From: an uncultured Holophagales bacterium
GTDB taxonomy: Bacteria; Acidobacteriota; Thermoanaerobaculia; Multivoradales; UBA5704
Assembly (NCBI GenBank): GCA_963842525.1
Contig: CAWJGT010000021.1
Coordinates: 34,716 to 98,715 of the forward strand
Reading direction: 5' to 3'
Length of the DNA: 64,000 nucleotides
Shown here: piece after piece, positions 21,755 through 62,026 of the stretch
Layout: every line of letters starts with the position of its first letter
Numbering within the stretch: position 1 is the first letter of the stretch
Made by a program: the position numbers and the translations under genes
Notes under the pieces: generated by a model
What the model was told of the DNA's origin: nothing
Database searches by the model: none
Seen by the model: only the letters and a program-made list of their open reading frames with translations

Positions 21755-22319
21755 ATGAGACAAGCTCCTGTTACGAATCTGCTTCAGAGGTGGAGCCAGG
21801 GAGACCGGGAGGCTGCGGAGGAAGTCCTGCCGCTCGTCTATGACGAGCTGCGCCGCATCGCCGCCAGGGAAGCTCCGTCGTGGGCCGCGAGGCCAGACCC
21901 TTCAGGCCACGGCCCTCGTCCATGAGGTCTACCTGCGCCTCAGCAGCCGCGAAGGCTTCCGCCTCTCCAGCCGGCCCCATTTCTTCGCTCTCGCGGCCAA
22001 GTTGATCCGGCAGATCCTCGTCGACTATGCCCGCCGCCAGAACCGGCTCAAGCGGGGAGGCCAGGCAGAAAGAGTGACGCTGACCGAGACGGCCGGCCTT
22101 GTGGAGCCGAGGGGGCCCGACCTGCTGGCGGTCGACGAGGCCCTGGAAAAGCTGGAGGAGCTCGACCCCAGAAAAGCAGCGATCGTCGAGCTTCGCTTCT
22201 TCGCCGGCCTGACCCTGGAGGAGACCGCCACGCAGCTCGGCATCTCCCCGGAGACCGTCGGCCGCGAGTGGCGCCGGGCGAGGGCCTGGCTGTGCAACGA
22301 GCTGGAGGGTGGAGCATGA
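21755..22319 (+). pseudogene. ECF-type sigma factor (Sigma70_ECF-like, kinase-associated type) with a frame break near 21870
   Basis: VTNLLQRWSQGDREAAEEVLPLVYDELRRIAARE continues in another frame as LRRGPRGQTLQATALVHEVYLRL. The C-terminal HTH is LTLEETATQLGISPETVGREWRRARAWL. Confidence 0.75.
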
Positions 22320-49102: not shown

Positions 49103-52100
49103 TCACCCGGCGAGAGCGAGCGCCGGGGGCGCGGCAGGGGGCGTGGCTTTTGCCGGATCCCGGCGGCGGCGGGCGATCACCTGGATGATGCCGGGGAGGA
49201 TTTCCACGTGGTCGGCGATCAGCTCGTGGAGCGTCCCGCGCTCGATGGCGAGGAGGCTGGACGGCTCGACCGCCTTTGCCGAGGCGGTACGGACTCCGGT
49301 CTCGACGGCGGCGATCTCGCCCAGGAGCTCTTCCGGCCCGCTCCGGCCGACCACCTGGCCGCGGACCTCGATCTCGATCCCGCCGGCCACGGTGATGTAC
49401 AGGTTGTCGCCGGGGTCGCCAGCCTGGAAGAGCAGCTCGCCCGGACGCAGCCGGACCTCGGTGATGGCTGCGGTGAGGCGGACCAGATCGGAGGGGCGGA
49501 CCTGGCCGAAGATCGGCGAGCGGCGCAGGATCTTCGCCTTCTCGAAGAGCAGCAGGGGCGGCTGGTCGCCCTCCCACCCCAGCCGGCGTTCGAGGGTTCG
49601 CAGATCCTGGGTCGGCAGCGATCCCCGCCGGCGCGCATAGAGCCCGCTGTCGAGCCTGTGGACCGCCCAGGCGGCCATCTCCCGGATCATCGGCTCCGGA
49701 TGGTGGAGGACGGCGAGGAGCTCGTCGGGGACCGCGGAGGCGGGCATGTCGACCAGGGCTCCGATCGCGCAGGCGCGGGTCCAATGGTCCATGTGTGAGC
49801 TGCCCTGGTGGATGATCTCGCACAGGCGCCCCACGCGGCCGAGCTGGCGCTGCGGGAAGCAGCGCTGGAGGCGCTCGAGGAGCTGGGACGGCGGGAGCTG
49901 CTCGAACAGCGGGAAGAGGGCCTCGCGCACGTCCGGCGGGACGACCGCCTCGGCGATCTCGAACACATAGGCGTGCCCCTGGCCGGCCGGGTCGGCCAGG
50001 CTGTGGCGCATCAGCTCCACCGCCTGCGGATCGGCCACCAAGGACAGAAGCAGGAAGATCGAGTCCCAGTCCCGCTCGAGGTCGCGCGCGAGGGCCGCCA
50101 CCACCTCTGCCACGGCGGGCTCGGTGCCGAGGTCGATCTGGGCCGCTGTGATCCAGGCCATGTGGCCCGCGATGTTCTCGACCTGCTGCTTGACCACGTT
50201 GTCCTGCAGGTCGTCGGCGTGGAAGCCGCGCCGTGCGAGGGAGAGCAGCGCCTGCCGCTGGACCTTGCGGTTTGGGTAGGTGATCTTGTCGAGAAGGAGG
50301 AGGTCCGTCTGCGGCCCGGGCACCTGCTCGTAGACCCGAACGATGCGCAGGAGGGTCTGGGGGCTCTGGTCGGAGCGGCGGAACATCTCCTCCAGGGAGT
50401 TGAGCATGGGCGCGCCGATCGTCACCAGGGCTGCGGCGGCCTCGCGGCAGCACTCGCTCGCGCGGAGCTGCTCGACGACGCGCGGCCAGACAGACCGGCC
50501 GAAGGGGCTGGCCGCCGCTCGCAGGGCCTCCCGGCGGACGGCGGTGTTGGTGTCCCACAACAGGCGCGGCAGCAGCTCGGCGGCCTCCTGCTTGGACAGG
50601 CTGGCGAGCAGGGATGCCGCGAGGCGCCGCTCCTCCGCGTCCTCCGACGTGGCCAGGGCGCGGACCCGCTCGTACGTGGTGTTGACCAGGAGGGACTCCA
50701 GGGTCCGCACGGCCTGGCGCAACGCGGCCCGCACGTCGAACCGCAGCTCTGTGGCCTCGCGGCGCTGCAGCTCGGCGAGCCGGTGGAGGAGGCGCAGCCG
50801 GTCGATGCGCTCCGCGGCCTCGCGGCGCAACTCCGGGTTGTCGGACGCCAGCAGCTCGCAGAGGGCCTCCTCGTGCAGGATGGAGTCGGACTTCTCGAGG
50901 ACGTTGAGCGCGTAGGCAACCTCGCCGACCGGCGCGGTATGGAGGTTGCGCCGCATCTGGTCGACGGGCGAGATGACGATCGGACGGCGGGTCCGGCGGG
51001 AGAGGAGCTGCAACAGCCGGACGCGGTATTCGCGGTGCGCCAGGAGAGTGACCGCCAGCCAGGCCACGAGGAGGAACACCAGGATCCAGATCACGCTGGC
51101 CGGACCAAACGCCGGAGGGCCGATGAGGAGCAGGGCGAGCCCCGCCAGGCCGAGGGAGACCTGCTTGACCACCCCTTCGACTCGGGTCTGGAAGACGAAC
51201 CGCTCGCTCTCGTCCACCGGCTGGAACAGGACCTTGAACGAGGGATCGAACAGCGAGCGGCGGACCACGAACTCGATCAGCTTGGCGAGCGAGAGGAAGA
51301 CGAAGAAGCTCAGGGCGGCGGTGCCCTGGACCCCCGCGCTGGCCGCCGCCAGCAGCGCGCAGAGCAGGACTCCCAACGGCAGGGACAGGAGGCCGAAGAG
51401 GAGCCCGAACTGCCGGATCAGGCGGCCGGAAAGAAACGTTTTCATCACCAGCTCGACGATCTTGGTGGCTCCCCAGAAGACGCCGAGGAAGATGGCGAGG
51501 GCCTCTTCGTTGCGGAACGTGCCGCGCGTCGCGCTGAGGAACCCGAAGTCGACGAAATAGAGGGAGAAGACGAGGAAGACGGCGAGGAGCGACAGCAGCA
51601 CGAAGTAGCGGTCGCGGAGCACGTGGGCCGGCGGGGCCTTTTCTTCCTCTACCTGGGCCGGGAGCGCGGGGCCGGCGACGGCCTCGGCCGGGAGCCTCCG
51701 CAACCCGGCGAGCACCACCAGCAGGCAGAGCGCCAGCCCTACGGCGGCGACCAGCAGGAGGTCCGAGGTGTCGCGGGAGAAGAAGGAGGAGACGAGCACG
51801 GGCACCAGGAAGAAGCCGAAGATCTCGGCCACCACCTCGCCGGAGCTGACGAGGCCGAACAGGCGCTTGCCCTGCTGCAGGTCGTAGGTGCGGCCGGCGA
51901 GGCCCCAGAAGCCGAGGTCGAGCAGCGTCAGCAGAGGATCGACGCAGATGAAGACGAGGAAGCTCATCCACAGCGGATCGCCGAGGCCGAAGGCCAGCCG
52001 GAAGGCACAGACCGCTGCCAGGAGGAAGGTCAGGTTGCCGATCAGCAGCCGGCGGAAGGGGAGGCGGCGCTGGAAGAGCGAGAAGAGCCACACCACCAGC

Positions 52101-52318
52101 GCACCCACCACGCCCGACGCGATGTAGGCGTAAGGGAGCCAGCGCGTCGCGTAGTGGCTGAGGAACGTGGCATTGGCAAAGGCGAAGAAGAAGGCGATGA
52201 AGATGCCGTTGCACAGCGACTGCCCCAGCAGGAACAGGGTGGGCAGACCCTCGCCCGGTCGGAGATCGAAAGTCCGGAAGAGGAAATCCTGGAGTCGGGT
52301 GCTGTGGCGGAGGTCCAT
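49103..52318 (-). CDS. Polytopic TLC/MFS-like (ATP:ADP-antiporter-like) membrane domain + HEAT-like solenoid + C-terminal cyclic-nucleotide-binding domain (1071 aa)
   Basis: About 12 TM helices span aa 1-440. HEAT-like repeats follow (DNPELRREAAERI, DTNTAVRREALRAA, HPEPMIREMAAWAV). The CAP_ED-like end is IFGQVRPSDL...LFQAGDPGDNLYITVAGGIEI...LLGEIAAVETGVRTASAKA. Confidence 0.7.
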   Translation of the reverse strand: MDLRHSTRLQDFLFRTFDLRPGEGLPTLFLLGQSLCNGIFIAFFFAFANATFLSHYATRWLPYAYIASGVVGALVVWLFSLFQRRLPFRRLLIGNLTFLLAAVCAFRLAFGLGDPLWMSFLVFICVDPLLTLLDLGFWGLAGRTYDLQQGKRLFGLVSSGEVVAEIFGFFLVPVLVSSFFSRDTSDLLLVAAVGLALCLLVVLAGLRRLPAEAVAGPALPAQVEEEKAPPAHVLRDRYFVLLSLLAVFLVFSLYFVDFGFLSATRGTFRNEEALAIFLGVFWGATKIVELVMKTFLSGRLIRQFGLLFGLLSLPLGVLLCALLAAASAGVQGTAALSFFVFLSLAKLIEFVVRRSLFDPSFKVLFQPVDESERFVFQTRVEGVVKQVSLGLAGLALLLIGPPAFGPASVIWILVFLLVAWLAVTLLAHREYRVRLLQLLSRRTRRPIVISPVDQMRRNLHTAPVGEVAYALNVLEKSDSILHEEALCELLASDNPELRREAAERIDRLRLLHRLAELQRREATELRFDVRAALRQAVRTLESLLVNTTYERVRALATSEDAEERRLAASLLASLSKQEAAELLPRLLWDTNTAVRREALRAAASPFGRSVWPRVVEQLRASECCREAAAALVTIGAPMLNSLEEMFRRSDQSPQTLLRIVRVYEQVPGPQTDLLLLDKITYPNRKVQRQALLSLARRGFHADDLQDNVVKQQVENIAGHMAWITAAQIDLGTEPAVAEVVAALARDLERDWDSIFLLLSLVADPQAVELMRHSLADPAGQGHAYVFEIAEAVVPPDVREALFPLFEQLPPSQLLERLQRCFPQRQLGRVGRLCEIIHQGSSHMDHWTRACAIGALVDMPASAVPDELLAVLHHPEPMIREMAAWAVHRLDSGLYARRRGSLPTQDLRTLERRLGWEGDQPPLLLFEKAKILRRSPIFGQVRPSDLVRLTAAITEVRLRPGELLFQAGDPGDNLYITVAGGIEIEVRGQVVGRSGPEELLGEIAAVETGVRTASAKAVEPSSLLAIERGTLHELIADHVEILPGIIQVIARRRRDPAKATPPAAPPALALAG

Positions 52319-52339: not shown

Positions 52340-55000
52340 TCAGCGGCGGAACGACAGCCGCAGGAAGACGGCGCGCCCGGGCTGCGGCAGCACCCGGGCA
52401 AAGCTGACGCCGTCCGCCGGGGAGACCCCCGGATCGTCGTAGCGGGCGTCCAGCAGGTTGTTCACCACGAGCTGCAAGCGGACGCCGGGCAGGACGTTCT
52501 CGTACGCCACGGCGCCATTGACCACCAGCGACGGATCGACGCGCTCGCCGTAGGGGTCGACCGGCCGGCCGAGGCGATCGACCCACAGCTCCTGCGGCTC
52601 CCGCAGCAGGTCGAGGTTCTGGCCCGCGCGGCGCTCGCTGGCCCAGTTGCCTCGCACGTTGAAGGTCCAGCGGTCGGCGACGCGGCCGGTCAGCCCGAGG
52701 TTGACGCGGTGGTCGGCGATGTCCTCGATCCGTACGTCGACGATCGGGCGGCCCTGCTGATCCTGCAGCGGCGTGCCGTCGCTGTGCAGGGGATCGGTCC
52801 GCGGGTCGGTCCAGGTGTAGCTCGCGTCCAGGTCGAGCCGGCGGTAGCGCCATTTCGCCGCCGCCTGCACGCCGGAGATCTCCAGCGACCCGAGGTTCTG
52901 GTTCTGCAACGTGCTCGGCTGGTTCGGCCGCTCGATCTCCTTGGTGGTGACCACGTCGCTGTAGCGGGCCTGGAAGGCCGCCGCTTCCAGCGACAGCTCG
53001 GGCCGCGGCTGCCAGCCGGCGCTCACCTCCAGGTTGCGCACCCGCTCCGGAGCCAGTGCGGGGTTGGGCAGCTCCCGCAGGCCCGGCGCCGTGGCATAGC
53101 GGTTGAAATTCGACGGCGCCTTGAACGCCTCGGCATAGATCGCCTTGAGCACCCAGGAGGACGGGCTGTAGATGAAGGCCAGCCGCGGGCTCGCCACGGT
53201 GCCGTAGCCCTCTCCCCGGTGCTGGGTGTTGTGGTCGACGCGGGAGCCCAGCACCACCTTGAAGTGGTCCCGGAGCCGGTAGGACGCCTGCGCGAAGGCA
53301 CCCACGTCCAGCTCGTCGAAATATTGGGGGTCGTCGCCGGCCAGGTTGTCGGTCGTCAGCAGGTAATCTCCCTGGACCATGCTGTTGCGGGCATCGAAGC
53401 CGCCGACCACGGCGAGCCGGCTGGAGGGGCTGTAGACGAGCGTCGCCTCACCCTTGAACTGCTCGGAGAGGAGCGCATAGGAGGTCTCCTGCCAGAAGGA
53501 GGCGCGGTCCGTCGCAAGGTCGCGGAGACCGAGGCCGCCGTTTGCATAGCTCTTGAGCAGTTGCTCGCTGGTATCCCCGCCCAGCGTGTGCCGCTTGTAG
53601 CTGCTCGTGAAGCTCAAGGCGAGCCTGCGGCTCAGCTCGTTGTCGTACTTGACATAGAAGAGGCTCTGCTGGGGCACCCACAGCGTGCCGTTGTCGGCAC
53701 CGGCATAGAGGCCGTCGGTGTACCAACTGCTGAACCCCTCCTCACGGCGCCAGGTCTGGAAGCCGAGCGTCAGGTTGAAGAGGTGCAGCCGGCCGCCGAT
53801 CGACCAGTCGTCGGTCCTGTCCGAATACCGCGGCAGCCGTCCTTCGACCGGGATGGCGAGCGCCGCTTTGTCGAGGGCGCGGGCCCTCTCGGCGCCCGCC
53901 GGCGTGAGCTCGAAGCCGCCGCCCGCCGCCGGCCTCACATAGGGGGAGGCGCGCAGGAGCGCCTCGTCCGCCGCGGACAACGAGCCGCTCTCCGGCCCGG
54001 TGCGGAGGATGCGGGAATAGTCCAGCCCGTCGTAGAACGACGGGTCGTAGTCCCAATCGGGGAATTCCGAGAGGTCCCACTCGTCGGACTGGTAGAGGCG
54101 GGCGCTCAGCGCGAGCGAGACCTTCTTGTCGCGGCGGCGCGTCGCCAGCGTGACGTCGGCCCAGCGGGTGTCCCAGGCGCCGCCGCCGGCCGTCAGCGCG
54201 GTGGCGAAGCGGCGGCCCTCCGGGATCATCTCCTCGGTTTCGCGCGTGATCACGTTGATCACTCCGGCGAAGGCATTGGCGCCGTACAGGGTCGAGGCCG
54301 GGCCGTAGATCACCTCGATGCGGTCGACGTTGCTCAGCGGAAACTGCCGCGACAGATGCGCGGCGTTCGACCACAGGTCGTTCTCCTCGATGCCGTCCAC
54401 CAGGAACAGCGTGCGGTCGTTGCGCGAGCGGTAGCCGCGCTGGTAGAAGACCGAATAGATGTCGCCGTTGCCGCGGGAGAAATCGAAGCCCGGCAGGTCG
54501 TGGAGCACCTGCTCCAGGTCGAGGTAGCCGCGGCGTTCGATCTCCTCGGCGGTGATCACCACCACGGTGGCGGGCGCCTCGCGCAGCGACTCGGGGGTCT
54601 TCGACACCGAGGTCACCACGGCCGACGTCGGCTGCCTGTCGCGGATCTGCTGCACTCGCCGGACGAACGGCAACGGATCGTCGAAGGCCGGACGGAAAGA
54701 GGGGTTGAGCTCCAGCAGGCTGGCGATCGTCCGATCGGCCCGCTCGATCTCGTCGAGCGCCAGCCAGGCCTTGGCAAGCAGGGTGTAGGCGCCTTCCTGC
54801 TCGCTGGGCTCGAGGTCGTGCGCGCAGGGCTCGAGCCGGGAGACCACGAGCTCCAGGCGGCCGATCTCGAAATCGGCCTGCGCGGCCTGGAGGTCGCAAG
54901 CGGTCTCCGCCCGGACAGCCTGCGGAGCGAGCCCCGGCAGGAGGAGGGCGAGGCCGAGGAGGACCGGGCTCGTGAGGCGGAACGGGGTCGGGGTCCGCAT
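52340..55000 (-). CDS. TonB-dependent outer-membrane receptor with a helical N-terminal extension of about 90 aa
   Basis: It has a signal peptide (MRTPTPFRLTSPVLLGLALLLPGLAPQAVRA). The plug is VVVITAEEIERRGYLDLEQVLHDLPGF...IEVIYGPASTLYGANAFAGVINVIT. A long beta-barrel follows, ending in RLSFRR. Confidence 0.85.
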   Translation of the reverse strand: MRTPTPFRLTSPVLLGLALLLPGLAPQAVRAETACDLQAAQADFEIGRLELVVSRLEPCAHDLEPSEQEGAYTLLAKAWLALDEIERADRTIASLLELNPSFRPAFDDPLPFVRRVQQIRDRQPTSAVVTSVSKTPESLREAPATVVVITAEEIERRGYLDLEQVLHDLPGFDFSRGNGDIYSVFYQRGYRSRNDRTLFLVDGIEENDLWSNAAHLSRQFPLSNVDRIEVIYGPASTLYGANAFAGVINVITRETEEMIPEGRRFATALTAGGGAWDTRWADVTLATRRRDKKVSLALSARLYQSDEWDLSEFPDWDYDPSFYDGLDYSRILRTGPESGSLSAADEALLRASPYVRPAAGGGFELTPAGAERARALDKAALAIPVEGRLPRYSDRTDDWSIGGRLHLFNLTLGFQTWRREEGFSSWYTDGLYAGADNGTLWVPQQSLFYVKYDNELSRRLALSFTSSYKRHTLGGDTSEQLLKSYANGGLGLRDLATDRASFWQETSYALLSEQFKGEATLVYSPSSRLAVVGGFDARNSMVQGDYLLTTDNLAGDDPQYFDELDVGAFAQASYRLRDHFKVVLGSRVDHNTQHRGEGYGTVASPRLAFIYSPSSWVLKAIYAEAFKAPSNFNRYATAPGLRELPNPALAPERVRNLEVSAGWQPRPELSLEAAAFQARYSDVVTTKEIERPNQPSTLQNQNLGSLEISGVQAAAKWRYRRLDLDASYTWTDPRTDPLHSDGTPLQDQQGRPIVDVRIEDIADHRVNLGLTGRVADRWTFNVRGNWASERRAGQNLDLLREPQELWVDRLGRPVDPYGERVDPSLVVNGAVAYENVLPGVRLQLVVNNLLDARYDDPGVSPADGVSFARVLPQPGRAVFLRLSFRR

Positions 55001-55005
55001 GGTCG

Positions 55006-58000
55006 TTACTTCCCTTCGGGCAGGTCGGGACAGGTTCTCTCGTAGGCGAGGCCGGCGGACATGAAACGGCCCCACTCGGCCTGGCTCAGGTTGCGGCCGA
55101 CGCTCCGGCAGATGGCCTCGGCATAGGCCGCGGGGCGCGTCCAGCGGAGGCGCACCCGGCGGTCGGCGCCGCCGGAGATCAACCGCTGGCCTTCCGGCGT
55201 GAGCGCCACGGACCACACCCAGCCGCCGTTGTCCGCCAGGCGCAGCGGCTCGACGCCACGGCGGTTGACGTTCCACAGGCGGACGGTCCCGTCGAGTGCC
55301 CCCGAGGCGAGCAGGGCGGGCGGCGAGAAGGCCACGGAGCCGACCGCGGAGGCGTGGCCCGCGAGCACTGCCGGGGGAGCCGAGGGATCGGCGAGGCTCC
55401 AGAGCAGGATGGTCCCCTCCACCGTGCCCGCGGCCAGGAGCTGCCCGTTGGAGCTGAAGGCCGCCGAGCGCAAGTCGCGTCCGCTGGCGAGCACCTGCGG
55501 GGACGCGGGGAAGCTCCACAGCCGCAATCCGCTCGCGGTCGCGGCCGCCAGGCGCGAGCCGTCCGGGCTGAAGGCGAGTGAGGCGACCCGGGGGCCTGAA
55601 GGGAGCAGCACTTCGGTCACGTCGGGATTGGCGGGATGGCGCAGGAGCACTCCCCCGTCGCCGCTGCCGGAGGCCAGACGGCCGTCGGCCGCCCGGAAGG
55701 CCAGGGCACCAACGATGCCGGTATGGCCGGGCAGCGGGCGGGGCGCGCTTCCGGGCTGGGAGAGGTCGCGCAGCAGGAGCGTGCCGTCGAGCCCGCCCGC
55801 GGCGAGATACCGTCCCTGGGAGTCGAGCGCCAGCGAGCGGACGCCGCCCGGCAGCCTGGCCGCGACCTCCGGATTACCGGTTGCCTGGCGCAGATCGAGG
55901 AGGCTCACCGTGCCGTCGTCGGCGCCGGCCGCCAGGGTGCGGCCGTCGCGGGAGAGGGCCAGTGCGCGGACCGCGTCAGACTGCGGGAAAACGGGCTCCG
56001 TGCCGGGGGCGACGCGGAGGGCTCCCTGACGGAGAGCGCCGAACACATTGGCGTCTTCGGGATCGCCGTCTTCGCGCTGGTGGATCCGCCAGGCCTGGAG
56101 GGCGAGCAGCGCGGCGAGCTGCCGCTCGTCGGCGTCCTGGAGGCGCGCGAGCTGAGCGATCAGGGAGCGGCTGAGCTGGAGCTGCCCGAGGCGCCGGGCC
56201 TCCTCGGCGGATTCCTGGGCCTGCCGGCGGAGGTCGTCGGCCCTCTCCTTCTGCTGGCTGATCTCCACCGCGGCTGCCTCCGCCTCTGCCCGCGCCTCGC
56301 GGGCCCTATCCGCCGCGGTCTCGGCCGCCGCGCGAGCGTCGTCGGCCCGGCGCTTTTCCTCCAGCGCCACGACCGCGCTCTGGCTCGCCCGGAGGCGCTC
56401 GCTGTCCGCCACCCGCCTCTCCGCCTCGGCCGCCCGCCGCGCCCTGTTGGCCGCGATCTTTTCGCGGTCTGCGGCGCGGCGTTGCTGCTGTGCGAGGATC
56501 GTCTGGCTCTGCGCCTCGTTCGCCTTTTGCAACGCCAGCTGCGCCTGCTCCTCCGCCTTGTTGGCCGAGGCCTTGGCCTGCGACTGCCAGACCACGGCGA
56601 AGATGCCGAAGAGGAGGATGAGGAGGGCGGCCGAGCCGAGGATCACGGCCAGCCAGCGGACTTTTCGCAGCTCGCCCAGGCGCTGCAGCTCGCGCGACGC
56701 GAGGGCCAGGTCGCGCTCCCGCTCGCTATATTCCAGGAAGAGCAGGCTGCGCTCGAACGCGAGGTCGTAGCGCTGCGCCCAGAGCGCCGTCGGCTTCTGC
56801 CGGTCCCGCCAGTTGAGGGCCACCTGCAGCTCGGGGTCGCGCCACAGCCCGGCGGTCCCCTCCTGGTATTGCGTTGCGGCCTTCGACAGGCGCAGGTAGA
56901 GCTGCGCCGAGCGCGCCTCCTCGTCCACCCACTGGTGGAGCCGGGTCCAGGTCCGCATCAGGCTCTCGTGGGAGATGTCGAGGACGGTATCGGCGGTGAG
57001 CAGGACGCGCGCCGGCGGCATCAGGAAGGAGCGCCCCGGCCGGCGGAAGCGCTCGACCACGGCCACCACCTCCGTCTCGGTCGCGCCCGCCAGCTCGCAG
57101 ATCTCGCCCAGCCGTGTCGGGCGGCGCACCCCGCGGGCGTCCGAGCCCTTGTCGGTCAGCGCCTTGAAAAGGGTCTCGGCGATCTCGCGCTCGCGGTCCG
57201 AGGAGAGCTCCAGGTAGGCCTTCTCGGCGTGCAGCGAGAGCGCCTCCTTCATCGTGCCGGTGGCTTCGTAGTGGCGCAGGTCCAGGGGCTCGTCCTCGCC
57301 GTGATGGCCCGACCAGTAGTCCCAGGTCCGCATCAGGGCGTGCTGGAGGATGGGGAGCTGGTCGGGGTCGTCCCCCATGTCGTTCAGGAGGCGCAGCACC
57401 AGGCGAGGCGCGACCTCGGCGCCGCCCACGGCCACCGGACCGACGATGGCGGCGCGGCGTTCCTCGCGGGTCATCCGGGGCACCAGGTACTGCCCGTCGT
57501 TGACCGCCTCGGCCAGCCCGGGGAGCTCCGTGCAGTTGCCGATGAAGTCGCTGCGCATGGTGAGGACGACGTAGATTGGAACCTCTCCCTGGCGGACCGT
57601 CTCGAGGAGAAGGCTCGCGAACGCCGTGGCCTCGTCGCGGGAGTTGCTGATCCGCGGGTTGCGCTTGAAGCGGAAGAGCTCCTCGAACTGGTCGACCAGC
57701 ACCAGCAGGTTCTCGCCGGCCGGCAGGCGCGCCTGGCGCACGCACTCGATCAGCCCCCGGGTGCTGCGGTGCAGGGTGGCGTCGAGGATGGAGCGGTCGA
57801 CCTGGGCCATCTCCGGGTCGCCGCCGCGGCCGAGCACCGCAGGTGCGTTGAGCGCCGTCGCCAGATTGCCGATGGGATCGTCCCCCGGGCGGAAGATGGC
57901 GACCCGCCAGCTCGAGCCGGCCTGGACCATGAAGCCGCCGTGGAGCGACGGGATCAGCCCGGAGCGGACGAGCGACGACTTGCCGCTCCCCGACGTGCCC

Positions 58001-58146
58001 ACCACCGCCAGGAACCGGGTGCGGCGCAGGCGTCCGAGCAGCTCGTCGACCTGCCGCTCGCGGCCGAAGAACAGGTGCTCCTCCTCGGGCTCGAAGCTGC
58101 GCAGGCCGGGGAAGGGATTGAAGCCGACCGCCGTGTCGAGGATCAC
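55006..58146 (-). CDS. STAND-type P-loop NTPase (nSTAND1-like) - TM helix - long coiled coil - WD40 propeller (1046 aa)
   Basis: The GTG start overlaps the TIR gene stop (GTGA). Motifs are FPGLRSFEPEEEHLFFGRERQ, Walker A GTSGSGKSS and Walker B LLVLVDQFEE. The TM helix is WLAVILGSAALLILLFGIFAVVW. About 190 aa of Ala/Arg/Glu coiled coil and about 7 WD40 blades follow, with a C-terminal ICRSVGRNLSQAEW motif. Confidence 0.85.
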   Translation of the reverse strand: MILDTAVGFNPFPGLRSFEPEEEHLFFGRERQVDELLGRLRRTRFLAVVGTSGSGKSSLVRSGLIPSLHGGFMVQAGSSWRVAIFRPGDDPIGNLATALNAPAVLGRGGDPEMAQVDRSILDATLHRSTRGLIECVRQARLPAGENLLVLVDQFEELFRFKRNPRISNSRDEATAFASLLLETVRQGEVPIYVVLTMRSDFIGNCTELPGLAEAVNDGQYLVPRMTREERRAAIVGPVAVGGAEVAPRLVLRLLNDMGDDPDQLPILQHALMRTWDYWSGHHGEDEPLDLRHYEATGTMKEALSLHAEKAYLELSSDREREIAETLFKALTDKGSDARGVRRPTRLGEICELAGATETEVVAVVERFRRPGRSFLMPPARVLLTADTVLDISHESLMRTWTRLHQWVDEEARSAQLYLRLSKAATQYQEGTAGLWRDPELQVALNWRDRQKPTALWAQRYDLAFERSLLFLEYSERERDLALASRELQRLGELRKVRWLAVILGSAALLILLFGIFAVVWQSQAKASANKAEEQAQLALQKANEAQSQTILAQQQRRAADREKIAANRARRAAEAERRVADSERLRASQSAVVALEEKRRADDARAAAETAADRAREARAEAEAAAVEISQQKERADDLRRQAQESAEEARRLGQLQLSRSLIAQLARLQDADERQLAALLALQAWRIHQREDGDPEDANVFGALRQGALRVAPGTEPVFPQSDAVRALALSRDGRTLAAGADDGTVSLLDLRQATGNPEVAARLPGGVRSLALDSQGRYLAAGGLDGTLLLRDLSQPGSAPRPLPGHTGIVGALAFRAADGRLASGSGDGGVLLRHPANPDVTEVLLPSGPRVASLAFSPDGSRLAAATASGLRLWSFPASPQVLASGRDLRSAAFSSNGQLLAAGTVEGTILLWSLADPSAPPAVLAGHASAVGSVAFSPPALLASGALDGTVRLWNVNRRGVEPLRLADNGGWVWSVALTPEGQRLISGGADRRVRLRWTRPAAYAEAICRSVGRNLSQAEWGRFMSAGLAYERTCPDLPEGK

Positions 58147-59630
58147 GCGAGCACCCCCACCTTGCCTTGGAGCTGTTGGAAGAACGGCGCCAGGTCCGCC
58201 GGTGAGTAGCCATCGATCTGCTGGAACACCAGGGCTTCGTGCGTGCGGAACCGCCGCTTCTGCGGGTTGTCGGGCCCGGCCACGAAGACCCCCCGCGCCC
58301 CAATCGGCCGGGTACGGCCGTAGGCGGCGCTCTTCTGCACCTCCCGCAGCTTCTGGCGCAGCCACAGCTCGCTGCCGGCGCCGTAATAGAGGAGGACGGC
58401 GTCGCAGAGGGCCAGGCTCTCCTCATGGTCCCGCCGCACCATGGCCTCATCGCCTTCGAACACCGGCAGGATGACCTCATGGCCCAGGCCGAAGAGGTGG
58501 TCCTCCAGGGCTGCCGTCTGGTCGAGGTCGCGTTGGTCGCAGATGAGATAGATGCGTGTAGGCCCGCCATCCGCCGGCCGCTCGGGCGCCGCAGCGGCAG
58601 GCGCGAGCCGCCGGTGGAGGGCCACCTTGAAATCCTCGAGCGGCGTCTCCAGGAGGTCCGCACCGTTCTGCAGCCGGGAATCCGTCTGCAGATGCTGGAG
58701 GAAGCGCTGCTGCCGCTCGTCGCGGGTCTCCAGGCCGGGAGGGATCCAGATCAGCCGGGAGAAGCCGCCGGCGGATCCGCGCTCGATGGCCAGCTCGTGC
58801 TGGAGCGCCACGATCGACTCCGTCGCCCCCTCGGGCACCACGCCGTAGTTCTGGCCCACCATGTGGACCGAAAGGCTGCAGCGGCCGAGCTGCTCGCGTA
58901 CGAACGCCTCGCACTCGGGCCCATAGAGGGGCAGGGGCCGGTCGGGCAGCACCGTCCAGCCGTGCTCCTGCAGCTCGCGCTTGACCGTATCCCGTTGGTC
59001 CTTGAGATCGAAGCTCGCCTCGGCCAGATAGACCGCCCCGCGGCTGGGGCTGGCGGGGGCCTCCCCGGCGGCGTCCTGCTTTTCGAGGATCGACAACAGG
59101 TCGGAAATATCGTGGGCGAGGTCGTCGAGCCGCGTCCAGTAGTGGCGCTGGATCTCGGGGTCGGCGATCTGCGAGAGCTCCCGCTGCCGGCCGGTCTCGG
59201 GCTCCACGACGAAGAAGTCATAGCCCAGCAGATCCTGGAGCTCCGAGGGGTGCTGCTCCAAGGGAACCGGCGTCTTGACCACCTTGAACACCCGTGCCTT
59301 GTTGGCGACACGCACGCCGCCGGTGCTCTCCGAGGCGCGATAGAACTCCTCGACCTCGCGCAGGCACCAATCCGATTTGACGTAGCGGGGCGACAGGACC
59401 GAGACCAGCAAGGCGGTGTGGGGAAGCTTCTCGCACAGCTCGTCGGCGAAGTAGTCGTTGCCCTGGAGCTTGGGGTCGCGGAAGATCCTGGGCGGCTTGC
59501 CCAGGAGCTGGGCCAGGCGGACCTCCAGAGCGTGGTGGAAGGTCGAGATCCAGCCCTTCTGTCCCTCGGTCAACGCCTGATCGTCGATGTGGGCGTAGCT
59601 GAGGAAGACGTCGCTGTCGAATCCGTTCAT
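58143..59630 (-). CDS. TIR domain protein followed by two DUF4062-like (TIR-like) domains
   Basis: The TIR domain begins DVFLSYAHIDD...SVLSPRYVKSDWCLREVEEF. Two further Rossmann-like modules follow (AVYLAEASFDLKDQRDTVKRELQ...SLSVHMVGQNYG; RIYLICDQRDLDQTAALEDHL...CDAVLLYYGAGS). An alternative GTG start lies at 59636. Confidence 0.8.
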   Translation of the reverse strand: MNGFDSDVFLSYAHIDDQALTEGQKGWISTFHHALEVRLAQLLGKPPRIFRDPKLQGNDYFADELCEKLPHTALLVSVLSPRYVKSDWCLREVEEFYRASESTGGVRVANKARVFKVVKTPVPLEQHPSELQDLLGYDFFVVEPETGRQRELSQIADPEIQRHYWTRLDDLAHDISDLLSILEKQDAAGEAPASPSRGAVYLAEASFDLKDQRDTVKRELQEHGWTVLPDRPLPLYGPECEAFVREQLGRCSLSVHMVGQNYGVVPEGATESIVALQHELAIERGSAGGFSRLIWIPPGLETRDERQQRFLQHLQTDSRLQNGADLLETPLEDFKVALHRRLAPAAAAPERPADGGPTRIYLICDQRDLDQTAALEDHLFGLGHEVILPVFEGDEAMVRRDHEESLALCDAVLLYYGAGSELWLRQKLREVQKSAAYGRTRPIGARGVFVAGPDNPQKRRFRTHEALVFQQIDGYSPADLAPFFQQLQGKVGVLA

Positions 59631-59814
59631 CCTCACCTGACCGGCCTCACATAGGGACCGCCGTCGCCTGTCCGGCCGACGTTCATGTCACAAACCTCCG
59701 AAGCTCAAGGTTTGCAGTATCATAGATCATGCCTGCCCCCGTGAGTGGGGCGAGAATCAAGAAAAACCTGAAAGTGAAGGACTTGCGCCGCGTGGAGAGG
59801 CGACGCCGGCGGCC

Positions 59815-59877: not shown

Positions 59878-61957
59878 CTATTCGTCGTCCTGCGGCGGAA
59901 GATCGCTCTCCGGCTCGGACCGTTTCCGCCAGCGCCGCCAGTGCAGGACGAGCGCCCAGGGAACCAGGATCCACCAGCAGACGAGGACGGCCCACAGGCC
60001 GAAGGAGGGCCGGTTGGCCAGGGTCAGGAAGGTGTTGTTGCCGAAGACATTGTCGTTGACCAGATAGGTCCAGGTGGAGGAGGGACCCCGCAGCCCTTCA
60101 CGCTCCCAGTCGACGCCGTCCGCACTCCTGGAGCTCGCAGCGCTGGTGCTCGAGAAGCTGCCAGTAGGTGAGCAGCCGGGCACGGAGATCGCCGTGCTGG
60201 CCTTCGACGATGCGCTGCACGCGCGCCACCTCGCGCCGCACGGCCGGATGATCGACGGCCCGGTCCGCCTCTCCGGATTCACCGGCCGCGCGCAGTCCCT
60301 GCAGGAGCTTCGGCGGCAGCAGCCGCTCGATGCCGCAGCGTTGCAGCAGGCTGTCCTCCAGGCTGAGGATGAACCGGGACGAGCCGGGGTCGCCCTGGCG
60401 GCCGGCCCGGCCTCGCAACTGGTCGTCGATGCGCCGGCTCTCGTGGCGGTTGGTGCCGAAGATGTACAACCCGTCGAGGGCCATGACCGCCTCGCGCTGC
60501 AGCTCGCCCGCTCCCCCGAGCCGGATGTCGGTGCCGCGGCCCGCCATGTTGGTCGAGATCGTCACCGCGCCCAGGGCGCCTGCCTCGGCCACGATCTCGG
60601 CCTCCTCGGCATCGTTCCTGGCATTGAGCACGCGGCAGGCGATCCCGGCCTGGCGCAGGTCGGCGGCGAGGCCCTCCGACTCTTCGACGCTGACCGTGCC
60701 CACCAGGATCGGCCGGCCGGTGGCATGGGTGCGGGCGATCTCCTCCAGGAGGGCCCGCCGCTTCGCCTCCGTGGAGGCATAGATCACGTCGGGGTGATCG
60801 ACGCGGATGCACGGCCGGTGCGGTGGGATCGGCGCGACTGTCGAGGTTGTAGACGCTGGGCCAGCTCCGGTGGCGGCGGGCCGCGCCGTGGCGGTCATGC
60901 CGCAGAGCCGCGGATACTTCCGCAGGAAGTGCTGGACGGTGATCGAGCCGAGGATCTTGCCTTCCGGCTGCGCAGCGCAATCCTTCCTTGGCCTCCAACG
61001 CCGCCTGCAGACCGTCGGGCCAGTGGCGGTTCTCGGCGACGCGGCCGGTGAGCTCGTCGACCAGCTCGATCCGGCCGTCGCGGACGATGTAATCCACGTC
61101 GCGCCGCAGCAGGGCCTCGGCGTGCAGGGCGTTGCGCACCTCGGCGAGCAACCGCACGTTCTCGCCGACAAAAAGGTTTCCAGCAGCCGAGGAGCTTTTC
61201 GGCGCGGTGCACGCCGTGCTCGGTCAGGAAGATGTTGTGCGCGTACTCGTCCGTGTCGTAGTCGCTTTCCCGCTTCGAGCCGGCGGGCGATGCCGGCCAG
61301 GCGCTCGAGGTCGACGCCCGTCTCGTCGAGCGTGCCGGCAATGACCAGGGGGATGCGTGCCTCGTCGATGAGGATCGAGTCGGCCTCGTCCACCAGGCCG
61401 AGATGGAAAGGCCGGTGCACCTGCTGGCCGCGATCGAAGCAAAGGCCGTCGCGCAGGAGGTCGAATCCAGCTTCCTTGACCGTCAAGTAGGTGACATCGC
61501 AGCCGTAGGCCCGCTGCCGCTCGGCGGTCGAGAGCCCCTCCTGGACGCAGGCGACGGTGAGCCCAAGCCGTTCGTAGATAGGCCCCATCCAGGCGGCGTC
61601 GCGGCGGGCCAGGTAGTCGTTGTAGGTGAGGACGTGCACGCCGCGGCCGGTGAGCGCGTTGAGCACCACGGGAGCGACCGCCGCCAGCGTCTTGCCCTCG
61701 CCGGTCTGCATCTCCACCAGCTTGCCCTGATGCAAGGCGATGCCGGCGAGCATCTGGACGTCATAGGGCCGTTGGCCGAGCGCCCGCCGGGCGGTCTCGC
61801 GCACCAGCGCGAAGCAGTCCGGCAGGAGAGTGTCCAGCGGTGAGCCGTCGCGGGCCTGCCGGCGCAGGTCCCCAGCCCGGTTGCCCAGCTCCTGATCGCT
61901 GGCGCGGGCAAGATCCGCCTCCCTGGCGTTGATGGCGTCCAGCTCGGAGCTCGTCAA
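59878..61957 (-). pseudogene. SecA-family ATPase paralog with a C-terminal TM helix, disrupted by at least 6 frame changes
   Basis: The DEAD motor is intact at the N-terminus (MQTGEGKTLAAV, HVLTYNDYLARRD, LVDEADSILIDEARIPLVIAG). The PPXD and NBD2 pieces are scattered over three frames (SDYDTDEYAHNIFLTEHG; NLFVGENVRLLAEVRNALHAE...ALEAKEGL; KILGSITVQHFLRKYPRLCGMTATA; VYNLD; IPPHRP). The tail in ORF 59878-60282 ends with GLWAVLVCWWILVPWALVLHW. Confidence 0.75.
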
Positions 61958-62026
61958 GGATAGGGGCCTCTGCGGTGATCATACCCGCTTTCGGCTAGAA
62001 TCTCCGGATCTCGAAGGAGGAGAGCC

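What the first reader, a model, noticed from the sequence alone, without database searches (positions are those of the whole stretch)
55006..58146. STAND NTPase predicted to place its coiled coil and WD40 propeller outside the cytoplasm
A single strong TM helix (WLAVILGSAALLILLFGIFAVVW) separates the N-terminal P-loop NTPase from about 190 aa of coiled coil and about 7 WD40 blades. The residues just before the helix are strongly basic (RELQRLGELRKVR). Those after it are not (QSQAKASANKAEEQ).

By the positive-inside rule this favours an N-in/C-out topology. STAND sensors are normally fully cytosolic. A periplasmic sensor propeller next to an outer-membrane receptor gene would be an unusual signalling geometry.
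Basis: inference. Interest (0 to 1): 0.65.

Follow-up and report, generated by a model that had tools for sequence, protein, structure and literature searches.

The report
Membrane-spanning STAND NTPase with outer-membrane partner
This is a STAND-type switch protein with its ATPase inside the cell and very probably its WD40 sensor in the periplasm, always encoded next to an outer-membrane barrel protein and usually a cytoplasmic TIR enzyme, which suggests an unstudied system that carries signals from the cell surface to the cytoplasm.

Summary
The gene lies on the minus strand (58146..55006) and encodes 1,046 aa:
- an nSTAND1 NTPase
- one strongly hydrophobic 23-aa helix (aa 498-520)
- a ~190-aa helical stalk
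- a 7-bladed WD40 propeller

The helix and its K/R-rich N-flank are kept in 120/120 close homologues and 80/80 metagenome loci. N-in/C-out is the only topology that leaves the P-loop domain in the cytoplasm.

The gene sits inside a conserved cassette. Upstream is a cytosolic TIR+DrHyd protein whose stop overlaps the STAND start (GTGA). Downstream is always a secreted outer-membrane β-barrel protein.

The constant part of that partner is an N-terminal helical domain with a probable disulfide. The barrel itself is exchangeable: TonB-dependent-receptor type here, a small OMP_b-brl_2 barrel in low-GC, probably Bacteroidota, loci. This domain follows 54/58 WD40-type genes and 0/14 TPR-type genes. 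A nucleotide-transporter-like/HEAT/cNMP-binding protein is a frequent fourth gene.

The nSTAND1+TM+β-propeller architecture is already listed in the supplement of Kaur et al. 2021. The outer-membrane partner and the cross-envelope reading were not found in the literature searched.

The topology is not proven experimentally, and the function (defence-type surveillance of the envelope) is inferred.

The parts
55006..58146 (-). Gene for the bitopic STAND NTPase (1,046 aa; GTG start, TAA stop)
   Evidence: ORF and translation. It aligns full-length to 120 homologues.
56857..58116 (-). Cytoplasmic nSTAND1 NTPase module (aa 11-430). Walker A is at 57973-57999 and Walker B at 57679-57708.
   Evidence: Pfam PF20703, E 3.5e-102. 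This is the most conserved region, at 70% mean pairwise identity.
56656..56856 (-). Helical region after the NTPase (aa 431-497). It ends in the K/R-rich stretch next to the membrane, RELQRLGELRKVR.
   Evidence: AF2 helices 439-450, 454-457 and 464-523.
56587..56655 (-). Single transmembrane (signal-anchor) helix, aa 498-520
   Evidence: KD19 2.87, Hessa sum about -3.5 kcal/mol, hydrophobic moment 0.07. Conserved in 120/120 homologues and 80/80 loci.
56011..56586 (-). Predicted periplasmic helical stalk (aa 521-712). It is Ala/Gln/Glu/Arg-rich, with near-invariant Ala every 7 or 14 residues.
   Evidence: AF2 helices. Ala autocorrelation peaks at period 7. The length after the TM helix is 530±13 aa in 120 homologues.
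55138..56010 (-). Predicted periplasmic 7-bladed WD40 propeller (aa 713-1003)
   Evidence: Pfam WD40, E 9.5e-38. 28 strands in AF2. Foldseek matches the PkwA WD40 domain 5yzv with target-normalised TM-score 0.87.
55009..55137 (-). C-terminal helical tail (aa 1004-1046) with conserved Cys1013 and Cys1039
   Evidence: Conservation 99% and 100% in alignment A1.
58143..59636 (-). Upstream gene for a cytosolic protein with three TIR-like domains: TIR_2 at aa 10-106 with motif WCLRE, a DUF4062/'DrHyd'-type domain at aa 202-279, and a third flavodoxin-like region. Its TGA stop overlaps the STAND GTG start (GTGA).
   Evidence: Pfam. Junction sequence. The motif SPRY..S[DE]WC.RE is invariant across 8 loci. 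No hydrophobic segment; KD maximum 1.2. A homologue lies upstream in 76 of 80 metagenome loci.
52340..55000 (-). Downstream gene for an outer-membrane TonB-dependent-receptor-type protein (886 aa). Parts: signal peptide (54908-55000); N-terminal 5-helix domain with a Cys pair (aa 32-125; 54626-54907); TonB-box-like AVVTSVSK (54599-54622); plug (54260-54586); barrel.
   Evidence: ATG lies 5 nt after the STAND stop. Pfam Plug and TonB_dep_Rec_b-barrel. AF2 pLDDT 91.9. Foldseek hits Cir, FepA and BtuB at E~1e-33. It follows the STAND gene in all 10 distinct database loci examined (in L009 the contig ends inside it).
49103..52318 (-). Frequent fourth gene: a 12-TM NTT/TLC-like transporter domain, HEAT repeats and a C-terminal cyclic-nucleotide-binding domain (1,071 aa)
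   Evidence: Pfam TLC, MFS_1, HEAT_2 and cNMP_binding. PDB ADP,ATP carrier 9j3n at E 7e-5, and CRP/PKA-R cNMP-binding domains. 12 hydrophobic peaks and a GE…RTA motif. A homologue is present in 7 of 10 distinct database loci and in 39 of 80 metagenome loci, where in the low-GC clade it lies upstream of TIR.

Best explanation
**What it is.** The gene encodes a single-pass inner-membrane STAND NTPase.
- In the cytoplasm: the nSTAND1 NTPase.
- In the periplasm: a ~190-aa alanine-heptad helical stalk carrying a 7-bladed WD40 propeller.

**The cassette around it.** It is the central component of a conserved module that spans the cell envelope.
- Upstream: a translationally coupled, cytosolic TIR+DrHyd protein that keeps the Glu of the WC.RE motif, which I take from memory to be the catalytic glutamate.
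- Downstream: a secreted outer-membrane β-barrel protein. Its constant feature is a small periplasm-facing helical N-terminal domain, probably disulfide-bonded. The barrel is interchangeable.
- Often also present: an inner-membrane NTT-like/HEAT/cNMP-binding protein.

**Proposed mechanism.**
1. The propeller, held out on its stalk, docks on or monitors the N-terminal domain of the outer-membrane partner.
2. An event at the outer membrane changes this contact. The event could be ligand, bacteriocin or phage engagement of the barrel, or envelope damage.
3. As in other single-pass receptors, the change is passed on by altered clustering of the TM helix and stalk. This switches the cytoplasmic STAND module into its oligomeric NTP-bound state.
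4. That state activates the TIR protein, which cleaves NAD+ or produces a nucleotide signal.
5. The cNMP-binding transporter-like protein is a possible downstream effector.

**Shown by sequence analysis:** the domain order, the single TM helix and its charge bias, the conserved gene order, the secreted nature of the partner, and the specific co-occurrence of its N-domain with the WD40 type.

**Inferred:** the topology (high confidence), the physical propeller/N-domain contact (moderate), and the trigger, the TIR output and a defence role (low to moderate).
For: **Topology**
- One non-amphipathic hydrophobic helix.
- N-flank K+R exceeds C-flank in 120/120 homologues, mean about 7 against 2.9, and in 120 of 141 more distant representatives.
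- The TM helix is present in 80/80 metagenome loci spanning GC 0.30-0.73.
- The NTPase has intact Walker motifs and no signal peptide.
- AF2 gives a continuous helix through the TM, then stalk and propeller.

**Cassette**
- TIR -> STAND -> TonB-dependent receptor, with a 4-bp overlap and a 5-nt gap in the window.
- The same order holds in 7 loci reached from STAND homologues.
- The STAND gene lies directly upstream in 3/3 further loci reached from the receptor side; TIR is present in only one of these three.
- Flanking genes differ between loci.

**Partner**
- An HMM of the receptor's N-terminal extension finds the ORF directly downstream of 54/58 WD40-type STAND genes and 0/14 TPR-type ones.
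- In the low-GC clade that ORF is signal peptide + N-domain + OMP_b-brl_2 small barrel.
- TPR-type STANDs are followed by a different signal-peptide-bearing protein with a Phenol_MetA_deg-type domain ending in YxF.
- 55/58 evaluable N-domain ORFs have a signal-peptide-like hydrophobic region.
- The two Cys of the N-domain are both found in 59 ORFs; in the other 11 the pair was not matched, and the ten sequences I read lack the pair at the conserved positions (nine have neither Cys; one keeps the first and has a displaced second). That pattern is what a disulfide would give.
- In the AF2 model of the receptor the N-domain forms five confident helices before the plug. The receptor has a true TonB-dependent-transporter fold.

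**Rates and output**
- The ectodomain and the receptor evolve faster than the NTPase and TIR. Regional identity is 0.40-0.43 against 0.70. Identity to the window protein is 38-72% for the receptor and 52-88% for TIR.
- The TIR motif SPRY..S[DE]WC.RE is invariant.

**Literature**
- Operons written 'TIR+DrHyd-> nSTAND1+TM+BetaPropeller' are listed among conflict systems by Kaur et al. 2021.
Against: - No experiment and no dedicated topology predictor supports the topology.
- No tool here could model the propeller/N-domain complex.
- A mirror-tree test did not single out the propeller. N-domain distances correlate equally with the NTPase (0.85) and the WD40 (0.84), and the partial correlations are 0.44 and 0.41.
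- PADLOC has no model for any of the three core proteins. Evidence for a defence-island context is thin: some loci carry CHAT or extra TIR genes.
- TIR is absent from 2 of the 3 receptor-side loci, so TIR may not be the only output.
- WD40 and TPR repeats are not themselves markers of exported proteins.
- The AF2 stalk has low confidence at aa 512-528 and 580-601. Whether it is an extended rod or a hairpin is unknown.
Confidence: 0.6

Rival explanations
1. Transport module. The TonB-dependent receptor and the NTT/MFS-like inner-membrane protein form an uptake route, for example for a nucleotide or NAD-related compound. The membrane STAND protein, with TIR, is its substrate-sensing regulator or gatekeeper rather than an immune sensor.
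For: An outer-membrane transporter fold plus a 12-TM nucleotide-carrier-like protein lie in one cassette. TIR and DrHyd domains act on NAD and nucleosides (own knowledge). PADLOC gives no defence hit.
Against: In the larger low-GC clade the receptor is replaced by a small OMP_b-brl_2 barrel, while only the N-terminal domain is kept. That does not fit a need for a 22-strand gated transporter. The NTT-like gene is missing from many receptor-type loci. The near-universal partner is TIR, typical of conflict systems.
Confidence: 0.15
2. Mechanical coupling or tether. The protein is an analogue of TolA or TonB, with N-in single TM, a long periplasmic spacer and a C-terminal globular head. It uses its NTPase to energise the co-encoded outer-membrane barrel or to tether it to the inner membrane. 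Its role would be envelope integrity or receptor gating rather than signalling.
For: The geometry is the same as TolA/TonB. There are weak compositional hits to TolA (E 0.006) and GltJ. The receptor keeps a TonB-box-like motif, V[TS]SVSK. Stalk length is tightly conserved at 530±13 aa after the TM helix.
Against: STAND NTPases are oligomerisation switches, not motors (own knowledge, Leipe et al. 2004). No ExbBD/TolQR-like genes are in the cassette. The TolA hits fall far below the model's cutoff (15.9 against 59 bits). This model gives no role to the coupled TIR protein.
Confidence: 0.1
3. The hydrophobic segment is not a membrane span, for example a buried oligomerisation helix or a monotopic anchor. 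The whole protein, including the propeller, would then be cytosolic like Apaf-1 or Avs.
For: Most characterised STAND sensors are cytosolic (PMC13581612). WD40 and TPR repeats are common cytosolic sensor domains. The conserved Cys pair in the tail does not discriminate.
Against: The segment is 23 uncharged residues with KD 2.87, hydrophobic moment 0.07 and a favourable insertion energy. Its sequence is variable but its hydrophobicity is conserved, and the charge bias is conserved. The obligate neighbour is a secreted outer-membrane protein.
Confidence: 0.04

Closest known systems
TIR+DrHyd -> nSTAND1+TM+β-propeller operons in the conflict-system catalogue of Kaur, Iyer, Burroughs & Aravind 2021 (eLife 10:e70394, Figure 2-source data 1)
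   Same: The NTPase family is the same (PF20703) and so is the domain string including 'TM'. The upstream TIR+DrHyd gene is also the same. Examples come from Cytophagales, Entotheonella and Luteitalea.
   Different: The catalogue lists architectures only. The main text mentions nSTAND1 once and does not discuss topology. Its neighbourhood strings contain no TonB or Plug term. The outer-membrane-barrel partner with a shared N-domain, and the NTT-like/HEAT/cNMP gene, are not described there.
Apaf-1 and prokaryotic Avs / NLR-like STAND sensors
   Same: A NOD-type NTPase is followed by a repeat sensor. Foldseek aligns the full length to Apaf-1 3sfz, and the propeller is a canonical 7-blade WD40. 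Activation by oligomerisation is expected.
   Different: Those sensors are cytosolic and bind intracellular ligands. Here a TM helix and a 190-aa stalk separate the NTPase from the sensor. PADLOC gives no Avs or bNACHT hit.
TonB-dependent transducer cell-surface signalling (FecA-FecR-FecI, FpvA-FpvR)
   Same: The outer-membrane TonB-dependent receptor carries an extra N-terminal periplasmic domain ahead of the TonB box. It is encoded next to a single-pass inner-membrane protein that has a periplasmic C-terminal domain and a cytoplasmic N-terminal signalling part.
   Different: The extension is a 5-helix TPR-like domain, not the STN signalling domain; Pfam finds no STN. The inner-membrane partner is a STAND NTPase, not an anti-sigma factor. 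No ECF sigma gene is in the cassette, and the output is a TIR protein. The barrel can be swapped for a barrel of the non-TonB OMP_b-brl_2 family.
Toll-like receptors
   Same: The geometry is similar: a repeat sensor outside, a single TM helix, and a TIR-domain output inside.
   Different: TIR is a separate polypeptide and a STAND NTPase sits between sensor and TIR. The sensor is WD40, not LRR. There is no evidence of common descent of the receptor as a whole.
TolA/TolB/Pal and TonB
   Same: The layout is N-in single TM, a long periplasm-spanning spacer and a C-terminal head that meets an outer-membrane protein. TolB is a periplasmic β-propeller.
   Different: There is no TolQR/ExbBD partner. 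There is a 500-aa NTPase on the cytoplasmic side. Sequence similarity to TolA is only compositional.
Mycobacterial PknD-type receptor kinases (cytoplasmic kinase, one TM helix, extracellular β-propeller); own knowledge
   Same: This is a precedent for a bacterial single-pass receptor with a β-propeller ectodomain and a cytoplasmic nucleotide-using signalling domain.
   Different: The cytoplasmic module and the propeller family (NHL) both differ.
Zorya (ZorAB), an anti-phage defence that senses the envelope (PMC11946911)
   Same: The concept is shared: an inner-membrane complex reads a perturbation of the cell envelope and passes it to cytoplasmic effectors.
   Different: The proteins are unrelated (a MotAB-like stator with a long tail). 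There is no outer-membrane partner gene, no STAND and no TIR in the core.

Membership tests
nSTAND1 clade of STAND NTPases (Pfam PF20703) | Match to the family profile above its curated cutoff | tested here: met
   343 bits against a cutoff of 27.1, E 3.5e-102, covering profile positions 1-374 of 379.
nSTAND1 clade of STAND NTPases (Pfam PF20703) | Intact P-loop (Walker A) and Walker B acidic motif | tested here: met
   GTSGSGKSS at aa 50-58 and LLVLVDQFEE at aa 147-156. G50, S52, G53, G55, K56, S57, S58, D152, Q153, E155 and E156 are invariant in 86 homologues.
nSTAND1 clade of STAND NTPases (Pfam PF20703) | NTP-dependent oligomerisation switch | not testable with these tools
   This needs biochemistry.
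TIR+DrHyd -> nSTAND1+TM+β-propeller conflict operon (Kaur et al. 2021 source data) | Upstream co-directional gene with TIR plus a DrHyd/DUF4062-type domain | tested here: met
   TIR_2 at E 2.4e-9 and DUF4062 at E 0.004, the latter below its cutoff. GTGA stop/start overlap. That DUF4062 equals the catalogue's 'DrHyd' is my assumption, not something I tested. A homologue lies upstream in 76 of 80 loci.
TIR+DrHyd -> nSTAND1+TM+β-propeller conflict operon (Kaur et al. 2021 source data) | nSTAND1, then one TM segment, then a β-propeller, in one polypeptide | tested here: met
Bitopic N-in/C-out (type II) inner-membrane protein | Single hydrophobic span long enough to cross the bilayer, not amphipathic | tested here: met
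   23 residues, KD19 2.87, hydrophobic moment 0.07, no second peak above 1.5.
Bitopic N-in/C-out (type II) inner-membrane protein | Positive-inside charge bias | tested here: met
   5 against 2 K+R in the window protein. N>C in 120/120 close homologues and in 120/141 distant relatives.
Bitopic N-in/C-out (type II) inner-membrane protein | Experimental location of the C-terminal domain outside the cytoplasm | not testable with these tools
   No reporter-fusion or proteomic data exist, and DeepTMHMM/Phobius were not available.
TonB-dependent transporter (the downstream gene) | Plug domain plus 22-strand barrel fold, with a signal peptide | tested here: met
   Pfam Plug at E 1e-22 and barrel at E 1.4e-38. 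AF2 pLDDT 91.9. Foldseek to Cir, FepA and BtuB at E~1e-33 with target-normalised TM-score up to 0.87. Signal peptide MRTPTPFRLTSPVLLGLALLLPGLAPQAVRA.
TonB-dependent transducer cell-surface signalling (Fec/Fpv type) | N-terminal STN-type signalling domain on the receptor | tested here: not met
   Pfam at E≤1 finds only Plug and barrel. The extension is a 5-helix TPR-like domain (TPR_19 hits in homologues).
TonB-dependent transducer cell-surface signalling (Fec/Fpv type) | Anti-sigma (FecR-type) partner and ECF sigma factor in the locus | tested here: not met
   The cassette genes are TIR, STAND, receptor and NTT-like/HEAT. No sigma or FecR domains appear in any of the annotated loci.
Known anti-phage defence systems (PADLOC v2.0: Avs, bNACHT, Thoeris, Pycsar and others) | Profile match of the core proteins | tested here: not met
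   No significant hit for TIR, STAND or receptor. Only the cNMP-binding domain of the fourth gene resembles Pycsar effector domains, E 1e-12.

The most novel reading that the evidence does not exclude
This would be a bacterial pattern-recognition system that spans the whole envelope, a functional analogue of Toll-like receptors.

- An outer-membrane barrel acts as a guarded surface receptor or decoy. In this clade it has a TonB-dependent-receptor fold, the class that phages, colicins and pyocins exploit.
- Its periplasmic N-domain is held by the WD40 propeller of an inner-membrane STAND protein.
- Attack at the cell surface is reported across both membranes to a cytoplasmic TIR enzyme before, or independently of, entry of foreign nucleic acid.
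- A cNMP-gated nucleotide-transporter-like protein acts as the effector.
Probability: 0.25. Interest if true: 0.85.

Novelty: new variant of a known kind. Interest (0 to 1): 0.66.

Why it matters
Characterised STAND/NLR-type immune switches in bacteria, plants and animals sense ligands inside the cell. A large family in which the sensor repeats sit outside the inner membrane, genetically locked to an outer-membrane protein, would add an extracytoplasmic sensing mode to this superfamily.

The family is large and widespread. The NTPase query found 45,420 clusters at 50% identity, and nearly all of the nearest 150 carry the TM helix. The loci examined range from 30 to 73% GC.

It would also give a concrete, testable case of signalling from the outer membrane to a cytoplasmic TIR enzyme.

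The exchangeable barrel with a constant N-domain identifies a small periplasmic module that I did not find described in the literature I could search. It is the likely docking site. The cassette offers simple constructs for topology, binding and NADase assays.

Tried and rejected
1. **Genome-contig scan with the single protein.** Synteny was obtained instead from the look-up of encoding contigs and one metagenome scan.
2. **PADLOC.** No known defence system matched.
3. **Mirror-tree / partial Mantel test.** I asked whether the partner's N-domain co-evolves with the propeller more than with the NTPase. Correlations were 0.84 against 0.85 and partial correlations 0.41 against 0.44, so the test does not discriminate and I do not use it as evidence.
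4. **Conserved Cys1013/Cys1039 in the STAND tail as a disulfide marker.** Rejected as evidence. From memory, the same C…NLT..EW…TC tail occurs in relatives listed without a TM helix, and I did not test that.
5. **Looking for C-terminal domains diagnostic of export in TM-bearing relatives.** Only WD40 and TPR were found, and neither is diagnostic.
6. **Foldseek of the STAND model and PDB sequence search.** Only WD40 and Apaf-1-type matches came back. No solved nSTAND1 structure exists, and nothing bears on topology.
7. **A linker-fused propeller + N-domain AlphaFold run.** Considered and not attempted.
8. **The adjacent SecA-like gene as a dedicated export factor.** Rejected. It is frameshifted and absent from the other loci.

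Full report
**1. What is at the coordinates**

The feature is a gene on the minus strand. It starts at GTG 58146 and stops at TAA 55008-55006, giving 1,046 aa. The longer ORF reaching 58365 overlaps the upstream gene in another frame. The GTG at 58146 overlaps that gene's TGA stop as GTGA and follows a G-rich ribosome-binding stretch.

Pfam places an nSTAND1 NTPase (PF20703, E 3.5e-102) at aa 11-430 and WD40 repeats (E 9.5e-38) in the C-terminal third. Walker A is GTSGSGKSS and Walker B is LLVLVDQFEE; both are intact and invariant in homologues.

**2. Is the hydrophobic segment a real membrane span?**

It is the only strongly hydrophobic stretch in the protein.
- Its Kyte-Doolittle 19-residue mean is 2.87. 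The next best is 1.47, inside the folded NTPase.
- A plain sum of Hessa-scale values (recalled from the literature) gives about -3.5 kcal/mol, against +6.1 for the next best window.
- The Eisenberg hydrophobic moment is 0.07 at a mean hydrophobicity of 0.91. The 'amphipathic helix' alternative therefore fails.

AlphaFold2, run on an 86-sequence alignment (pLDDT 84.6), gives this layout:
- one uninterrupted helix from aa 464 to 523, through the segment
- long helices at 527-589 and 599-666, then shorter ones at 672-691 and 699-712
- 28 strands forming seven blades (aa 719-1002)
- a short helical tail

The stalk is 25% Ala. Ala recurs with period 7, and near-invariant Ala sits every 7 or 14 residues in the family, which is the pattern of tightly packed coiled coils. 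Confidence is low at aa 512-528 and 580-601, so I cannot say whether the stalk is an extended rod or a hairpin.

**3. Conservation of the span and its charge bias**

| Sample | Result |
|---|---|
| 120 best homologues (48-76% identity; those with a source name are Thermoanaerobaculia/Acidobacteriota MAGs) | All have one 19-23-aa hydrophobic segment starting at about aa 495-513. N-flank K+R averages about 7, C-flank 2.9. N>C in 120/120 |
| 150 nearest cluster representatives found with the NTPase alone (45,420 clusters at E≤1e-3) | 138 have exactly one strong segment, near aa 500. Of 141 evaluable: N>C in 120, equal in 12, N<C in 9 |
| 80 loci from the metagenome scan (GC 0.30-0.73) | All carry the segment |

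The helix sequence is poorly conserved (43% identity, against 70% for the NTPase), but its hydrophobicity is kept. That is what a lipid-facing span looks like.

The P-loop domain needs cytoplasmic NTP and has no signal peptide. It is also translationally coupled to a TIR protein with no hydrophobic segment (KD maximum 1.2). A real single span therefore forces the stalk and propeller outside the cytoplasm.

**4. The neighbourhood: a conserved cassette**

In the window the minus strand carries four genes in a row:
1. a 497-aa protein with a TIR_2 domain, a DUF4062-type domain and a third flavodoxin-like region (59636..58143)
2. the STAND gene
3. five nucleotides later, an 886-aa TonB-dependent-receptor-type protein (55000..52340)
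4. 21 nt further on, a 1,071-aa protein (52318..49103)

The order TIR -> STAND -> receptor recurs in seven further distinct loci reached from STAND homologues, with unrelated outer flanks. In one of them (L009) the contig ends inside the receptor gene, which I identified by tblastn.

Starting instead from receptor homologues at 38-41% identity, including one from an Ignavibacteriaceae MAG, the gene directly upstream is again an nSTAND1-TM-WD40 protein in 3/3 distinct loci. Two of those lack TIR.

Identity to the window proteins is 52-88% for TIR, 48-75% for STAND and 38-72% for the receptor. Within STAND, the ectodomain parts (0.40-0.43) diverge faster than the NTPase (0.70).

**5. The constant element is the partner's N-terminal domain, not the barrel**

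The receptor has these parts in order:
- a signal peptide
- a ~95-aa extension containing two Cys, invariant across the eight aligned loci
- an invariant V[TS]SVSK..ESL.EAPA stretch (TonB-box-like motif plus the start of the plug)
- the plug and the barrel

Its AF2 model is very confident (pLDDT 91.9, pTM 0.89). The extension forms five helices (aa 37-122). The rest has a true TonB-dependent-transporter fold: Foldseek finds Cir, FepA, BtuB, PfeA and FpvA at E~1e-33.

I built an HMM from the extension of 111 receptor homologues and searched all ORFs of 93 loci. It hits the ORF immediately downstream of the STAND gene in 54 of the 58 WD40-type metagenome loci that have at least 400 bp of downstream sequence. 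It hits none of the 14 loci whose STAND carries TPR repeats instead.

In the most numerous clade (STAND 35-40% identical, mostly lower GC, probably Bacteroidota) the downstream protein is only ~350 aa. It consists of a signal peptide, the same N-domain and a small OMP_b-brl_2 (PF13568) outer-membrane barrel.

Of the N-domain ORFs, 55 of 58 evaluable have a signal-peptide-like hydrophobic region. My pattern search found both Cys in 59 ORFs. It missed the pair in 11, and in the ten of those I read the pair is absent at the conserved positions (nine have neither Cys; one keeps the first and has a displaced second). That is the pattern expected of a disulfide, and so of an exported domain.

TPR-type STANDs are followed by yet another kind of secreted protein. 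It has a signal peptide, a low-complexity linker, a Phenol_MetA_deg-type domain and a terminal Y-x-F. From my own knowledge I read these as outer-membrane-barrel features.

In short, a membrane nSTAND1 gene is followed by a gene for an outer-membrane barrel protein, and the WD40 type goes with one specific periplasmic N-domain. The only part of any other cassette protein that could meet that domain is the STAND stalk and propeller. This is the strongest indirect support for the proposed topology. It also points to a propeller/N-domain contact.

**6. The other cassette members**

*TIR.* A TIR homologue lies upstream in 76 of 80 metagenome loci. Its first domain keeps the motif SPRY..S[DE]WC.RE in all eight aligned loci. 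From my own knowledge, the Glu in WC.xE is the catalytic glutamate of TIR NADases. The nearest solved sequences are plant TIR NADases (RUN1, E 0.004).

*The fourth gene.* It has 12 hydrophobic segments related to NTT/TLC nucleotide carriers (Pfam TLC E 2.7e-5; PDB 9j3n ADP,ATP carrier E 7e-5). HEAT repeats follow. The C-terminus is a cyclic-nucleotide-binding domain with a canonical GE…RTA cassette. That domain resembles those of Pycsar effectors (PADLOC, E 1e-12).
- A homologue lies in or beside the cassette in 7 of the 10 distinct database loci.
- It is found in 39 of the 80 metagenome loci. In the low-GC clade the order is NTT-like -> TIR -> STAND -> small barrel.

It is a frequent but not universal member.

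**7. How it most likely works**

*Shown by sequence analysis:* the domain order, the single span, the charge bias, the gene order, the secreted partner and the type-specific co-occurrence.

*Inferred with high confidence:* the NTPase is cytoplasmic, and the stalk and propeller are periplasmic.

*Inferred with moderate confidence:* the propeller binds or monitors the partner's N-domain beneath the outer membrane. The length after the span is tightly conserved (530±13 aa), which fits a geometric constraint such as the width of the periplasm.

*Inferred with lower confidence:* an event at the outer membrane changes this contact, and the change reaches the cytoplasm through altered clustering of the single-pass helix and stalk. 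That suits a STAND module, whose activation is oligomerisation. The oligomer then activates the TIR protein. The cNMP-binding transporter-like protein is a candidate effector.

The receptor class involved is the one that phages, colicins and pyocins use as receptors; several of the structural matches are such complexes. The surface-exposed partner is also the fastest-evolving component. Both fit a surveillance role but do not prove one.

**8. Rivals**

- *Uptake route regulated by STAND.* A receptor plus an inner-membrane carrier would fit. But only the N-domain, not the gated barrel, is conserved, and the carrier is often absent.
- *TolA/TonB-like energiser or tether.* The geometry fits. But STAND domains are not motors, no TolQR/ExbBD genes are present, and TIR is left unexplained.
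- *Fully cytosolic protein with a non-spanning hydrophobic helix.* Sections 2, 3 and 5 contradict this.

**9. Comparison with what is known**

nSTAND1 was defined by Kaur et al. 2021 (PMC8195603), whose main text mentions it once. Their source data, however, contain 'nSTAND1+TM' 412 times and 'nSTAND1+TM+BetaPropeller' 278 times. They also list operons written 'TIR+DrHyd-> nSTAND1+TM+BetaPropeller' from Cytophagales, Entotheonella and others. [quoted passage not shown] The architecture, and the TIR pairing, are therefore already catalogued.

The same files contain no TonB or Plug term. Only five papers in the searchable library mention nSTAND1. None of the papers I read describes an outer-membrane partner or discusses the topology of these proteins. 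Doré et al. 2024 (PMC10907252) predicted a periplasmic location for one DGR-diversified NACHT-CLec target, so the idea of an extracytoplasmic STAND sensor has a computational precedent. The 2026 survey of prokaryotic STANDs describes WD40 sensors but uses 'transmembrane' only once, in a figure legend.

In function, the closest analogies are:
- TonB-dependent transducer signalling (FecA/FecR/FecI). Its defining STN domain, anti-sigma factor and sigma factor are absent.
- Toll-like receptors, for geometry only.
- TolA/TolB, for geometry only.
- Receptor kinases with propeller ectodomains.
- Zorya, as an envelope-sensing defence.

PADLOC has no model for the core proteins.

**10. Verdict**

- The finding is a new variant of a known kind. 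It is a catalogued TIR/nSTAND1+TM+propeller system, now shown to be genetically locked to an outer-membrane barrel protein through a conserved periplasmic domain, often with a nucleotide-carrier-like/cNMP-binding protein.
- The function remains inferred.

Noticed in passing
window 60098-61957 (-), with 60279-61157 and 60895-61341 in other frames: A SecA-like gene lies directly upstream of the cassette. Its DEAD and P-loop domains are in one frame, but the preprotein cross-linking domain is split over two other frames, and the C-terminal wing/scaffold part is missing. It is either a decayed SecA paralogue or a stretch with assembly indels. It is not conserved next to the cassette in other loci.
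   Followed up: partly
window 49103-52318 (-); also L003, L005, L008, L011-L015 and about half of L016-L095: A 12-TM NTT/TLC-like carrier fused to HEAT repeats and a cyclic-nucleotide-binding domain accompanies the TIR/STAND genes in many loci. In the low-GC clade it sits upstream of TIR. A nucleotide carrier next to a TIR enzyme suggests nucleotide export or import, or a cNMP-gated effector. Its role is unexplained.
   Followed up: partly
L065, L071, L085, L092, L095 and other TPR-type loci: Sister systems have nSTAND1+TM+TPR instead of WD40, again after a TIR gene. They are followed by a different secreted protein: signal peptide, S/T/P/Q-rich linker, Phenol_MetA_deg-type domain and a terminal YxF. 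L095 also has an extra ThsB-like TIR gene downstream.
   Followed up: partly
L012 (Ignavibacteriaceae MAG), L013/L014: These cassettes have STAND, receptor and the NTT-like/HEAT gene but no TIR gene upstream. TIR is therefore not an obligatory output, or it is encoded elsewhere in those genomes.
   Followed up: no
L028, L041, L044, L045, L050, L053, L061, L079, L090, L093 (ORF downstream of STAND): A subclade of the small-barrel partners has lost both Cys of the N-domain together. L042 is a partial exception: it keeps the first Cys and has a displaced second. Joint loss is what a disulfide pair would show. Whether the cognate propellers changed in step was not examined.
   Followed up: no
window 9753-12155 (-) and 21926-25063 (+): The window holds other large signalling or conflict-type genes: a TPR-CHAT (caspase-like) protein and a Ser/Thr kinase fused to TPR repeats. 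Neither is adjacent to the cassette.
   Followed up: no
window 48232-49041 (-), 61979-62581 (+), 62600-64000 (-): The cassette is flanked by a Uma2-family putative endonuclease gene, an OmpA-family gene on the opposite strand, and an acidobacterial-type VWA-domain gene. None of them is found next to the cassette in the other loci.
   Followed up: partly
STAND aa 1004-1046 (window 55009-55137): The C-terminal tail has the motif C..V.R.LT.EEW…PYE.TCP with two almost invariant Cys residues. The role of the tail (cap of the propeller, metal site or disulfide) is unknown.
   Followed up: partly
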